Shown here one piece after another: positions 234-39,200 of a DNA stretch of 64,000 nt. The notes beneath the pieces are model-generated. The model saw only the letters and a list, made by a program, of their open reading frames with translations, searched no databases and had not been told where the DNA came from. How positions within the stretch are numbered: the first letter of the stretch is position 1; each line of letters begins with the position of its first letter. The position numbers and the translations under genes were made by a program. The stretch is from assembly GCA_964016885.1 (NCBI GenBank), contig OZ024752.1:2356001-2420000 (forward strand). The letters are read 5' to 3'. The stretch is from Eledone cirrhosa (Eukaryota).

Positions 234-513
234 AAAATAAAATAAACAAATCAAATGTTTAAGATTTGGCTTCGTTTATTACTGCTATATATAATTCGGT
301 GAGAGCCATCTTTGGCTGTGACCTCTTCAGGCAGTCCGAATAGTGTGGTATAGACGAGTGCACATGTTGTTGAGGTGTTTAACTTTGTCAATACTCTGAT
401 ATGCCCAGTTACTGGTTGGGTTGTTATTTCACTGAGAAACTGGAATCATATCATGATAAACGAAGTAATAAACGAAGCCAAATTTTAAACATTTGACTTA
501 TTTATATTATTTT
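234..513. mobile_element. PLE pseudo-LTR-like remnant with inverted ends (234-283 vs 464-513), near (TA)n tracts
   Basis: AAATGTTTAAGATTTGGCTTCGTTTATTACT is mirrored by AGTAATAAACGAAGCCAAATTTTAAACATTT; contains an HHR motif on the minus strand. Confidence 0.6.
281..335 (-). ncRNA. Type I minimal hammerhead ribozyme motif with one core substitution (GAAA>GAAT)
   Basis: Minus strand reads ACTGC-CTGAAGA-GGTCACAGCC-AAAGAT-GGCTCTCACC-GAAT-TATATATA-GCAGT; helices I and II pair. Confidence 0.7.
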
Positions 514-843
514 ATATATATATATATATATATATATATATATATATATATATATATATATATATATATAGACACACCCGCACACACACATATATATATA
601 TATATATATATACACACACACACACACACATATATATATATATACATGTGTGTGTGTGCGTAGTTGTGTGTGTGTGTGAGCCCCAAAGTACTGGCACGCA
701 AGTGTGAAGATATAAGGATGCAAACATACTTCGATATCAATGGTCAGAATAACATGAGGATAAGAGAGTCGACAATCCTTTCCATATGACAAGCATTAAA
801 ATGTGTTGTTATTATAGCTTCATTTCTTATATTTTCAGACATT

Positions 844-953
844 AATCCCGCCGAGGTTAACTTTGCTTTTCATCCTTACGAGGTGGATAAAATAAAGTAC
901 CAGTAATACACTGGGTATTCGCTGGCTTTGTGCCAAAATTAGAAACAACTATT
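844..953 (+). mobile_element. tRNA-derived SINE (octopus OK-like family), 5'-truncated
   Basis: CCCGCCGAGGTTAACTTTGC..TTCATCCTTACG..GATAAAATAAAGTACCAG and the 3' tail match the other copies. Confidence 0.85.
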
Positions 954-1564
954 TGATAGCAAATGCTTAATCATATGTTTAATTCACAAAGAACATGGGC
1001 TAGCAATCCGGCCATATATTTATATGCTATGTGTAGCTTTATGTATGTATGTACTTTTACGAATGTATTATACATAAAATTACTTAGAACCCCAGCGTAC
1101 ATCCTGTAATTGTCACATATCTCTTCATATTTCTGCTAAGTTTCCTTTGCAAACAGTCTCATATTTCGTTCATGAATTTAAGTGGGGAAATAACTGTCGT
1201 ATTGAATTTCTACGATGGAACCACATTCTGGGACTATATCCGGCTATCTGATAAGCCAGAGAAGGAAGCAATTATTAATGTCATGTTCTGCAAAAGTAAC
1301 GTTGCTTCCCAAACGAGTAAAGTTGTCTTTTCGCTATCGTTACTACTGAGTTGGTGAAGTTTCCAAAAATGTATGCAGACATACTAAACTGCAAAAATAT
1401 TTCGATATATGTGCAGTCGCACTTGTATTATCACTGGCGGTAAAGCTATGGGCACACAGGCCAGTCTCTATCCGTTTGAATAAATGTATAAATGTATATA
1501 TGTGTGTTTATAATCAGTTATTTAAGTACAATTTCAAAAAGTTTGTTGCAAAATAGTCTTGAAT

Positions 1565-1640
1565 TCCCATTCTACTACTCTATGTATTGAGTACTCTGGT
1601 GTGTTATGGTCCATCTGGTTCCTTACCACATTTCCTTTGT
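1565..1640 (+). mobile_element. 3' tail of dispersed (TA)n-abutting repeat family B
   Basis: TATTGAGTACTCTGGTGTGTTATGGTCC..GGTTCCTTACCAC matches 14300-14356, 57195-57250 and 61170-61227. Confidence 0.75.
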
Positions 1641-2331
1641 TATATATATATATATATATATGTAAATAATTTTACATATATGCATCCAAATATATATATA
1701 TATATATATATATATATATATATATATATATATATATATATATATATATATATATATATATATATGGGTGTGTGTGTGTGTGTCTCTCTGTGTGTCTGTA
1801 TGTCTGTCTGTGAGTGAAAGTTTGCGTGTGCCTGTGTTTGAATGTGTGACAGAATCAGTGAGGGAGAAAGAAAGACATTCCTCATCCTGTACATACAGCT
1901 GTCAATTTAACGTCATTTCGTCTAACAATTTAAGACTATATGACCTGGACAATACAATGATATCAGTTGCCCTCTTTGAGACAGTGTGACAGTCGTGATT
2001 ACCGAATTTGTGTCCCCATTGGTCCCATTTCATTCCTATCACCATATCACCTACTTTACACCACAAGCCCTCATTCTCTTTACGCTTTTTCCTCAAAATT
2101 CCTCCGATATCACTACCGTTATCATGACTTCAAGTGAGACTGAAAGTAGGTCACATGTAAGCAAATAAAGAATCCAACAAAATCTAAAAGAAGAATGAAT
2201 AAATTATCTGTACACACGAAAGACAATATATATATACTAAGGAAAACGCAGAATCAACGGGCATACCGCCTATGGATGCATCCAAGCAAGCTTACTACAC
2301 ACACACACACACACACATATATATAACTATA

Positions 2332-35888: not shown

Positions 35889-37383
35889 TATATATATATA
35901 TATATATATATATATATATATATATATACATACACATATACATATATATACACACACATATATACATATACACACATACACATACATACACACATACATA
36001 TATATATATATATATATATATACACACATATACATATACATATATATATATATATACATATACACACACACATATATATACACACATACACATACACATA
36101 CACACATACACATATACACACGTATATAAATGGCTAAACATATATATATACACACACACACACACACACACACACACACACATATATATATATATATATA
36201 TATATATATACATATATAAAAAATATACATACATATATATACATATTGGTACGGACGTGCTTCACTGACCGTCGATATTTGAAATTTAAATCGACAGAAA
36301 TCGGTGTTTTGTATCGTCGTAATTTTTCAAAAGTCAAAGAAAACATAAAAGAGATAAGTTTTGTGTTCTTTGACGGGATTAATTTACGTATGCTAGCGTT
36401 TTAAATGAGTTTATATTCTCCTAAAAAGAACACACACACACGTGCTTTCTTTGTCTACCATACAGAGTATAGAAAGATAGTACGTAATTTAATTTATTTT
36501 AAGTAAATTTTGTATTATTTTGTTTTATTTTGAATAACATAATTTAATATAATTTTATTTTTATTTTAGACTCAGTGGGCATGTGTATTTGTTGTTGTTT
36601 TTGATATAATGTTGTTTTTGATATATTGATATTACAATAACTACGGTTCACTATATTCCCGTTATTTATATTTGTAGACAAACATACCTACATTTGAAAT
36701 CAACTTACATGCAACTTGTATACAACTTATATCAATCTTGGTAATTCTATATCTTTAATTTATTTGGGTTTCATTCGTTTAATGTATTTTTAATTTATTT
36801 TATTTTTATCTTAATTTTTTCTGTCTCCTTTTATAGTTCATGTTCATATCGTTTGTACCTCACTTTGTTTCGGTCTTTTAATCGCGAAATATTCTTTGAA
36901 CGATATTAATTATTAATATTTATAGTTCTCTTTAACCGCTCCTTTTCCTCTCTCTGCATTGTTATTTCTCACGCTGTCTCTCTCCTTCTTCCTCCCTCTC
37001 TATCTTTCTCTCTAGATCACACGAGCCCCCCCCCCTCTTTCTCTCTAAATCGCACCTTGAATTTCTCACCTGACTTACTTATCTCCCCCCCTCTCTCTCT
37101 GAATCCCCCCACTCTTCCAGCTATCACACTCGCTCCTCTCTTCTCTCTCTCTCCGTTCTTTCTTTTGTTTCTTTTTCCTTTTCTCTCTCTCTAGATCGCT
37201 CAAGCTCGCTCTCTCTTTTCCCCTCTAAATCCCTCCTTAAATTTCTCACTGGACCTATATTTCTCATTGTCCATCTCTAACCTCTAGCCCACCCCTCCCA
37301 TTATCTCTCTTTCTCCCCTCCACAGCAAAACGGACTGCATACAGGGAAGAGGTGAAGTTAGGCGTCAGCGAAACTCGTCAAAG

Positions 37384-38205
37384 ATGGAACTAGCGGTTTT
37401 GATCAATGGGTGTTGCCTGGCCGATGGGTCACCAACAAGCAAAAAGATTGAGGAGACCCTGAAGAGCCATGGGTTTCTGAGAACCCTGTTGCAGATAGAG
37501 CGAAAAGGAAAATAAGTCGAGAACGCATATGTCCTCATAGCACCACCTATGGCATGCTAAGCCGTGTGCTCAGGGAGCAGAAAGACGAAGAGAAAGGAGA
37601 CGAAAAAGAAAAGGAAGAAAGCACAAGCACGGACCTGAAAGAAAATGAGATACCCGCCGCAACAGTCAGGGAGGGCAGGCCGGGCAAGCAACAAGTAAAC
37701 GGTAAAGGTGAGAAAGGGAAATCACCGTCCGAAAGAGAACCAAGCGCAGAGGGACCAGTGGACAACTATTAAAAAAAGAACAGAAAGCACCGAGACACAG
37801 GGAGCAAGAAAACCCAAGTAATGTGCAAGTTCTTCAGGAACGGGACCTGCTGGCATTGAGGCACAGGGATGGGCTGCAGATTCGCCCACCTCAGGTCCCA
37901 AACGAACTATGCCCATCCTAATCGCGCAACTTGCAACAGCCAAAGCCAAAACAAGCCGCTCCAGAAGTATGCTGATGTCGCGCGTGCCGCGGCAACACGG
38001 AGAAGACATGCACATGCCGCCGAGACACAGATGGCAGCAGCAGTACTGAAACATATTCAGTGATGGCAGAGAAGATTGGTCGAGACCACCACAATTAAGG
38101 GACCCAGAGTGGCCGCCGCAGACACCAGACCAGTTGTCATACTGACAGCCATTACTGGCACTCCAAAAGTCATACCAGAGGTGCTGCTGAATGTCAGAGG
38201 CCTGG
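37384..38205 (+). mobile_element. L1/Tx1-like LINE 5' part: decayed ORF1 with CCCH-type finger and the first residues of ORF2
   Basis: ATG at 37384; K/E-rich segment; CKFFRNGTCWH*GTGMGCRFAH; YADVARAAA; VLLNVRGL (APE start); pyrimidine-rich leader with a two-copy repeat at 37005-37270. Confidence 0.6.
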
Positions 38206-38261
38206 TGAAACTCAGTAATATGATTTTCATGGGTATGTCTCTATTTACAAAACAAACTTTG

Positions 38262-38325
38262 TATTTTATCTGATGAAAGCGTACCAATGTTGTCTTGGTA
38301 CTCTTGAAATATATATAATAGAATA
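38262..38325 (+). ncRNA. Type I minimal hammerhead ribozyme in a family A copy (~38215-38372), predicted cleavage after 38317
   Basis: TATTTTAT-CTGATGA-AAGCGTACCAA-TGTTGTC-TTGGTACTCTT-GAAA-TATATATA-ATAGAATA. Confidence 0.82.
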
Positions 38326-38689
38326 AATATGGTTTTATAAATATAGTTTCCATTTATTTAATATCATTGTAATATATATATATATATATATATATATATA
38401 TATATATATATATATATATATATATATATATATATATATAATTTTATATATATATATGTTTTTTTTTTATATATATATATATATATATTTATATATATAT
38501 ATATTTATATATATATTTATATATATATATATTTATATATATATATATATATATATATACATATATATATATATATTATATATATATATACTCATATATA
38601 TATATATATTATATATATATATACATATATACATATATATATTATAAATATATATATATATATATTTTATATATATATATTATATATAT

Positions 38690-39200
38690 ATGGAAAGTTA
38701 TATTTAAATTGTTGGGTTACAACTAGTAAATATTTATAACTGATATAAAAGCACTCGACAAATATTTGGAGTATATTTACAATATTAAATAAATGGAAAC
38801 TATATTTATAAAACCATATTTATTTCATTATATATATTTCAGGAGTTGGAATGGGAGTGGATTGGCAGTATCGGTAGAGGGTCGGACGCCATGCTTTGAC
38901 ACAGAGTTACGGCCCTTGCCATTCTGAGTTCAAATCCCACCGAGGTTAACTTTACCTTTCATCCTTACGGGGTCGATAAAATAAAGTACCAGTAATGCAC
39001 TGAGTAATTGCTGGCCTTGTGCCAAAAAGTAGAAACAATTATATATATTTCAGGGATAACATATTAACAATATGCTATGCCTTCCTCAGACAAAATACAA
39101 TATAAACAGTTTTATAGATAAATAGATTCGACATACCGTAACAACATCGACTTGTATTTGAAAAGGTTGAATTGGCAGTGAAAAAAATTGTACACAGAGA
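38690..39200 (-). mobile_element. Family A pseudo-LTR copy whose HHR (39038-39097) is interrupted by a SINE
   Basis: Minus strand CTGAGGA-AGGCATAGCATAT..ATATGTTATCCCT-GAAA-TATATATA; flanks match 29441-29590 and 60180-60312. Confidence 0.78.
38844..39037 (+). mobile_element. tRNA-derived SINE, full length with 17-bp TSD
   Basis: TSD ATTATATATATTTCAGG at 38827-38843 and 39038-39054. Confidence 0.92.

What the first reader, a model, noticed from the sequence alone, without database searches (positions are those of the whole stretch)
281..39097. Helix II keeps a C-C (or C-U) mismatch at its 4th pair across divergent HHR families
Seen, outer helix II strands: GGTC A../..T CACC (281), GGAC G../..C CTTC (27894), AGGC A../..T CCCT (29482, 39038), AAGC G../..C TCTT (38262), GGAC G../..C CTCT (34746). 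The first three pairs covary (G-C, A-U, G-U), pair 4 is always C opposite C or U, and pairing resumes after it. These copies also share a UA-rich helix III and an AUA cleavage triplet. Inference: covariation indicates selection on RNA structure, and the conserved mismatch may be an unrecognised tertiary contact replacing the usual loop I/II interaction.
Basis: partly seen in the sequence, partly recalled or inferred. Interest (0 to 1): 0.75.

Follow-up and report, generated by a model that had tools for sequence, protein, structure and literature searches.

The report
Unpaired cytosine in transposon hammerhead ribozymes
These are predicted self-cutting RNA motifs at the ends of a known kind of jumping gene, present about 100,000 times in this animal genome, and across many diverged families they keep one cytosine unpaired in their second stem, which likely weakens the fold so that cutting would need a partner RNA or the element's protein.

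Summary
All six cited sites, plus a seventh (26585-26634), are type-I hammerhead motifs with C opposite C or U at helix II pair 4 (shuffles: 0). Genome-wide, one strict pattern gives 48,560 motifs: about 91.5% C·C, 1.9% C·U, 0.5% C-G; a broader pattern gives 104,318. They end Hydra-clade Penelope-like elements. In 19 of 19 family consensuses examined, and in a further 209-copy family, position 10.4 is C; its partner is C, U or A, never G, while neighbouring pairs swap compensatorily across endonucleases about 30-50% identical. The conserved feature is therefore an unpaired C10.4, probably of single origin, not a C·C pair found independently. None of 25 published Hydra-clade hammerheads has it. 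No partner for the proposed tertiary contact was found. Most likely the mismatch (about 6 kcal/mol computed) makes folding conditional on dimer or protein; cleavage is untested. One key paper (Lünse et al., RNA Biol) could not be read. This scan reported the same feature twice before on other DNA of this genome.

The parts
281..335 (-). Type-I hammerhead motif, GGTC/CACC family; C10.4 at 320, C11.4 at 301; core damaged (GAAU); predicted cut after 286
   Evidence: contigs of run X1 read the usual letter at 294 and 303 and show no variant of 5% or more at 301 or 320
26577..26642 (-).
27892..27957 (+). Hammerhead motif with intact core, GGAC/CTTC; C·C at 27910/27934; predicted cut after 27949; 148-nt tail to (TA)n
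29482..29547 (-). Hammerhead motif with intact core, AGGC/CCCT; C·C at 29529/29505; 49-nt tail to (TA)n
34746..34811 (-). Decayed hammerhead motif, GGAC/CTCT; C·C at 34793/34769; A9 is U and the helix III palindrome is broken
38262..38325 (+). Hammerhead motif with intact core, AAGC family; C·U at 38280/38302 is a copy-level change from C·C; part of a ~150-bp truncated element (38219-38371) ending in (TA)n
39038..39097 (-). Hammerhead motif, AGGC/CCCT; C·C at 39079/39055; helix I 3' strand displaced by the insertion at 38844-39037
38844..39037 (.). 194-bp dispersed repeat inserted next to the predicted cut site of the 39038 copy, between two copies of a 17-bp stretch (39038-39054 and 38827-38843)
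39098..39494 (-). 3' UTR of the Penelope-like family upstream of the 39038 hammerhead
   Evidence: blastn, 75-89% over about 460 bp (39038-39494) to ORF-linked copies

Best explanation
These motifs sit at the 3' ends of one sub-lineage of Hydra-clade Penelope-like retrotransposons and keep cytosine 10.4 of helix II without a G partner, which likely acts as a selected weak hinge that would leave the inner helix unfolded until two ribozymes pair up or the element's protein binds. Shown: the link to the retrotransposon ORF, the non-coding position, invariance of C10.4 and absence of G11.4 among the family consensuses examined, compensatory swaps in neighbouring pairs. Computed: closing the pair stabilises the hairpin by a median 5.8 kcal/mol. 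Inferred: the ancestral state was a C-G pair and G11.4 was lost once; helix III works as an 8-bp palindromic dimer; slow or conditional cutting spares the uncleaved RNA that is reverse-transcribed.
For: ORF link: Hydra-type endonuclease ends about 1.0-1.9 kb upstream on the same strand for eight families; the RW[KR]-like, DKT, CxCX5C, CxxC and CxH motifs listed for the clade are in these ORFs. Counts: 48,560 motifs (control 172), 45,398 C·Y, 946 C·U, 260 C-G, 2,367 non-C at 10.4; the listed C-G and non-C copies are mostly scattered variants of the same families. Families: 10.4 is C in 19 of 19; 11.4 is C 15, U 3, A 1, plus a 209-copy C·A family. C10.4 decays in copies where it sits in CpG (9 of 100 listed have T), yet no sampled family of this group has T as consensus. 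Folding: in 13 of 18 representative copies pair 3 has probability under 0.5, against 4 of 18 with G at 11.4. A second long-helix group has U·C or U·U at the same pair in 20 of 30 sampled copies, G·U in 5. Pair 1 is also weak. Window copies run 49-148 nt past the predicted cut site. In a Poseidon element the ribozyme cuts only with the element's protein and uncleaved RNA is the main template (PMC11167929). AUA was the slowest of four triplets in one viroid hammerhead (PMC1636495 abstract).
Against: Mere weakening would not need C in particular: U·C would weaken as well, yet C10.4 is invariant in this group, which points to a specific contact. Other families in the same genome have a long helix II with pair 4 paired (e.g. 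helix III CCACTGGTA, CTAATTAGTT, CCGATCGGTA). Nearest-neighbour folding ignores non-canonical pairs, Mg2+ and dimers, and was run on single genomic copies, some decayed. Natural hammerheads with 1-2 bp stem II can be active, and adding a pair to stem II lowered activity in one case (PMC3088659 passages), so closing the pair need not speed cutting. No cleavage or expression data were obtained.
Confidence: 0.45

Rival explanations
1. C10.4 makes a specific RNA contact (to helix I, or to the second ribozyme of the dimer) that stands in for the loop I/loop II interaction and speeds cutting.
For: C10.4 is invariant while its partner drifts among C, U and A. Pair 4 lies where canonical loop II begins, and the canonical contact uses an A in the stem II loop with the U next to 1.6 (PMC2553840 passages). 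Position 1.7 is a pyrimidine in 16 of 19 families.
Against: No conserved G or covarying flank position. Helix I differs between families: about 8 AU pairs in some, 4-5 GC-richer pairs then an internal loop in others. U1.7 is about as common in families with a paired pair 4 (11 of 18). Position 11.5 is never A.
Confidence: 0.25
2. The unpaired C is read by the element's own RT-endonuclease protein as part of its binding site on the template RNA, with little effect on cutting.
For: Base-specific invariance without an RNA partner; the feature tracks one protein clade (89/85 support); a Penelope-like protein assists its ribozyme in vitro (PMC11167929).
Against: The proteins differ by 50-70% across families. 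Published Hydra-clade elements have C10.4 paired. In PMC11167929 the proposed protein binding site is the downstream initiation stem-loop, not helix II.
Confidence: 0.15
3. A tolerated accident: G11.4 was lost once in the lineage founder and the state was inherited with little selection.
For: Seven C·C families and the C·U family with ORF links fall in one clade. A10.7-U11.7 is also unchanged among these eight linked families. Position 11.4 changed only a few times, so never reaching G is weak evidence alone.
Against: Upstream UTRs no longer align for most family pairs, neighbouring pairs have swapped, and an unconstrained C in CpG context decays quickly in copies, yet it is kept in all 20 families seen.
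Confidence: 0.15

Closest known systems
Hydra-clade Penelope-like elements and their hammerheads (Craig et al. 2021, PMC8557442; section 11, passages and supplement parts 1-2 of 59 read)
   Same: ORF motifs, (TA)n targets, type-I hammerhead near the 3' end; weak first pair (U·U in 14 of 25 listed elements); C at position 4 of the 5' strand in 15 of 25 (counts by eye).
   Different: In all 25 distinct listed elements stem II is drawn fully paired and none has C opposite C, U or A at pair 4. Helix II here is longer and helix III is an 8-nt AU-rich palindrome.
PLE-associated minimal and palindromic-helix-III hammerheads (Cervera and de la Peña 2014, PMC4209133; main text parts 1-3 of 4 and supplement parts 1-2 of 3 read)
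   Same: Type I, long helix II, palindromic helix III, dispersed truncated copies and inverted pairs, many families per genome with compensatory changes, no canonical loop contacts; dimer mechanism proposed.
   Different: Their consensus has an extra base before a conserved G10.1-C11.1 and a paired helix II. Of 56 aligned examples none has C·C; two single examples have a non-pair at the fourth position (U·U in Clonorchis 2, C·A in S. purpuratus 1; by eye). A bulge in helix II is described for D. virilis.
Short-stem-III hammerheads of Penelope-like elements that cleave as dimers (Lünse, Weinberg, Breaker, RNA Biol 14:1499)
   Same: As summarised in a review passage (PMC6765202): short palindromic stem III, dimer cleavage, PLE association.
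   Different: Paper not held, so whether its consensus or alignments already show this mismatch is unknown.
Canonical type-I hammerheads of Schistosoma Sm-alpha and metazoan retrozymes (PMC2553840, PMC7229834; passages read)
   Same: Catalytic core and type-I topology.
   Different: They have a 4-bp helix II capped by a loop that docks on a helix I bulge; here helix II continues past an unpaired C and no such loop exists.

Membership tests
Type-I hammerhead ribozyme | Core CUGANGA, GAAA, NUH around three helices with helix I open | tested here: met
   Intact in 4 of 7 window copies by core letters and helix I (26585, 27900, 29539, 38270; 26585 has lost pair 3); damaged in the other three; intact in tens of thousands of genomic copies
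Type-I hammerhead ribozyme | Covarying helices I and II | tested here: met
Type-I hammerhead ribozyme | Self-cleavage after NUH | not testable with these tools
   needs an in vitro assay or RNA ends
Type-I hammerhead ribozyme | Match to an Rfam hammerhead model | tested here: not met
   0 matches at gathering score; none among the 150 of 260 rows shown at E up to 10
Canonical (Sm-alpha/retrozyme) type-I hammerhead | 4-bp helix II with a loop whose A pairs with the U next to 1.6 | tested here: not met
   helix II continues beyond pair 4; 11.5 is C or U in 19 of 19 families
PLE-associated dimer-type hammerhead | Short palindromic helix III, unstable as a monomer | tested here: met
   three helix III octamers fold to nothing alone; two form 8-bp self-duplexes and one a 6-bp duplex
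PLE-associated dimer-type hammerhead | Extra base before a conserved G10.1-C11.1 | tested here: not met
   pair 1 is G-C in 4 of 19 families and non-canonical in 6; pair 2 has a purine on the 5' side in 19 of 19
Hydra-clade Penelope-like element | RWK-like and DKT motifs; C-terminal GIY-YIG endonuclease with CxCX5C linker, CxxC and CxH | tested here: met
   RWR/RWI, DKT, CNCRxxxxC, CDLC and CRH read in linked ORFs against the definition; Pfam found no family for three of these ORFs
Hydra-clade Penelope-like element | Insertion into (TA)n | tested here: met
   5 of 6 window copies checked end in (TA)n 49-148 nt after the cut site
Hydra-clade Penelope-like element | Phylogenetic placement with published Hydra proteins | not tested
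   the tree holds only sequences from this genome

The most novel reading that the evidence does not exclude
C10.4 is a sequence-specific switch: flipped out of helix II, it docks on the partner ribozyme or on the element's protein and licenses cleavage. That would be a peripheral activating contact without loop-loop interaction, in a ribozyme present about 100,000 times in one animal genome, and a direct handle on the open question of what Penelope-like hammerheads do.
Probability: 0.25. Interest if true: 0.65.

Novelty: new variant of a known kind. Interest (0 to 1): 0.42.

Why it matters
The role of hammerheads in Penelope-like elements is still open: they cut poorly alone and one needs the element's protein. 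This lineage offers a natural series of about 20 families in which every helix II pair has been exchanged except one unpaired cytosine. That gives a one-nucleotide test of whether these ribozymes are tuned down on purpose or activated by a contact not seen in solved structures. It also shows that searches demanding a paired helix II would miss a large share of the hammerheads in such a genome: 22 of 45 in a random 590-kb sample carried an unpaired C10.4.

Tried and rejected
Coding constraint on C10.4: rejected. In three tandem copies the long ORF begins about 240-345 nt after the core, frames through the motif meet stops, and the AUG in the core is absent in families with A, G or C at N7. Watson-Crick tertiary partner in helix I flanks: none. 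Expression: no RNA holder listed; run X1 is contigs of unknown kind and may be the source sample, so it is not independent. A link between the fully paired GGTCACAG family and a Hydra endonuclease was suspected and dropped: 1 of 30 endonuclease loci had it downstream. One pattern for the second group was mis-specified and gave 3 matches; corrected. Literature: searches and passage searches in PMC7229834, PMC6155905, PMC7761336, PMC13725137 and PMC3088659 found no description of a conserved pair-4 mismatch; figures are not held, and Lünse et al. and Hammann 2012 were not available. Of bioRxiv 10.64898/2026.07.22.740005 only part 1 of 5 was read; its supplements are closed.
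Full report
Observation. The six cited sites are type-I hammerhead motifs: helix I, CUGANGA, a long helix II, GAAA, an 8-nt AU-rich palindromic helix III and an AUA triplet. A seventh lies at 26585-26634, inverted to the 27900 copy. Pair 4 of helix II is C·C in six and C·U in one. The same scan finds nothing in 30 dinucleotide shuffles. Pair counting on the seven copies shows two-sided changes at 5 of 8 helix II pairs and 0 of 7 paired cells at pair 4. Four copies are damaged, and the one C·U is a private mutation: 95 of the first 100 listed copies of its subfamily have C.

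Genome-wide counts. In the window's genome (G000, 3.0 Gb) the pattern CUGANGA, 20-38 nt, GAANUAUAUAUA occurs 48,560 times (reversed control 172). Of these 45,398 have C opposite a pyrimidine, 946 C·U, 260 C-G and 2,367 lack C at 10.4. By subtraction about 44,450 (91.5%) are C·C and about 535 C·A; variable-gap patterns make these figures approximate. The listed C-G and non-C matches (first 100 of each) are mostly single changes spread over the same families. A broader helix III pattern with C·Y gives 104,318 (control 11). In 590 kb taken without regard to the motif, 45 strict hammerheads were found (control 0): 20 had this kind of helix III (13 C·C, 6 C·U, 1 C·A), two more had C·C, 22 were paired at that position and one was spurious (sorted by eye).

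What carries them. A reverse transcriptase-endonuclease ORF ends about 1.0-1.9 kb upstream on the same strand for eight families (most links rest on 2-5 loci, one on a single locus). The ORFs show the motifs that define the Hydra clade of Penelope-like elements, and copies end in (TA)n. Most copies are short 5'-truncated ends, often in inverted pairs. The motif is non-coding. On an endonuclease tree of 36 fragments from this genome, the seven linked C·C families and the C·U family form one clade with moderate support (89/85). A ninth C·C family maps outside it through a single uncertain link, and two fragments linked to paired hammerheads lie elsewhere. Identities between the deep branches are about 30-50%. 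The 600 nt upstream of the ribozyme score at or near shuffled levels for most pairs of the eight families; only the F1/F7/F4 trio aligns clearly. So the families are deeply diverged but probably share one origin of the mismatch.

What is conserved. I clustered 237 distinct copies into 61 groups and took by eye 19 groups with a long helix II in the plain register and an 8-nt helix III of this type, leaving out groups that looked like decayed or derived copies of larger families, the second long-helix group and the paired families; 8 of the 19 rest on one copy. Among them pairs 2, 3, 5, 6, 7 and 8 are canonical in 18, 19, 16, 19, 18 and 17 of 19, with two to four pair types each; pair 1 in 13; pair 4 in none. 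Position 10.4 is C in all 19; 11.4 is C in 15, U in 3, A in 1. A family first suspected to have a closed pair turned out to be C·A by consensus (209 copies). Where C10.4 sits in CpG it decays in copies (9 T in 100), but no sampled family of this group has fixed that. The constraint is therefore asymmetric: C at 10.4, anything but G opposite. A second group with a very long helix II (7,985 matches, control 185) has U·C in 15, U·U in 5 and G·U in 5 of 30 sampled copies at the same pair. Against a general rule, 18 other groups have pair 4 paired, several with long stems.

Mechanism. No RNA partner was found for C10.4: no conserved G near helix I, helix I geometry differs between families, and U1.7 is no more typical of mismatch families than of paired ones. 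Folding single copies shows the cost of the mismatch: a median 5.8 kcal/mol, and a median probability of pair 3 of 0.17 against 0.99 when closed (18 copies, detail). With the weak first pair, an AU-only helix III that is predicted to form only between two molecules and the AUA triplet (slowest of four in PMC1636495, abstract), the motif looks built to fold poorly alone. Genomic copies extend past the predicted cut site, and in a Poseidon element uncleaved RNA is the main template and the ribozyme cuts only with the element's protein (PMC11167929, second part of the main text and passages). I therefore favour a selected weak hinge that makes cutting conditional (0.45). The strict choice of C is the main fact this does not explain, and it keeps a specific RNA contact (0.25) or protein contact (0.15) alive; near-neutral inheritance gets 0.15. 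None of this is tested at the bench.

Comparison with what is known. Hammerheads in Penelope-like elements, palindromic helix III and dimer cleavage are known (PMC4209133; PMC6765202 passages). The 25 distinct Hydra-clade hammerheads in Craig et al.'s File S2 have paired stems; 15 have C-G at this position and 14 a U·U first pair (by eye), which suggests that the state here arose by loss of G11.4. Of 56 examples in Cervera and de la Peña's Fig. S3 none has C·C and two have another non-pair at the fourth position. A U·U first pair is known to be tolerated (PMC3088659 passage). Eight searches found no report of a conserved pair-4 mismatch, but figures are not searchable and Lünse et al., the largest survey of such motifs, was not held.

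Verdict. A real, lineage-wide and probably selected variant of a known ribozyme in a known retrotransposon clade; so far seen in one genome, with function untested. The scan already reported it twice from other DNA of this genome. Interest 0.42.

Noticed in passing
window 28040-28060 region and tails of tandem copies in L099, L314, L315, L096, L436, L082: A GAGUGY motif, often closing a hairpin with an upstream ACUC, recurs about 60-120 nt after the predicted cut site in families whose UTRs otherwise do not align; short copies stop before it (49-55 nt tails), longer ones include it. It may mark the optional tail and a second reverse-transcription start.
   Followed up: no
window 38844-39037; similar insertions in L118, L319, L329: A ~190-bp dispersed repeat inserts in or just after the AU-rich cut-site region of these hammerheads in several unrelated copies.
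   Followed up: partly
L095:8215-8640 and L392-L426: A Hydra-type family with near-identical endonuclease copies (150 scored, 95-100% identity, open frames up to 928 aa) shares only about 400-1000 nt of 3' UTR and shows no CUGANGA hammerhead there.
   Followed up: partly
L160-L189: A second hammerhead group (about 8,000 matches) with a 48-70 nt helix II region that shares an internal GAGUC...GAGCUG motif and mostly has U·C, U·U or G·U at pair 4; no ORF link found.
   Followed up: partly
L030:649, L070:2902, L395, L351:8547: Hammerhead-like families with CCGA instead of CUGA in the core.
   Followed up: no
window 40538-40938 (-): Remnant of a Hydra-type Penelope-like ORF, 33-49% identical to L096's, from a different family than the 39038 hammerhead.
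   Followed up: no
window 22558-23400, 24388-25422, 29875-30357 (+): ORF fragments that read like endonuclease and reverse transcriptase parts of non-LTR retrotransposons (by eye).
   Followed up: no
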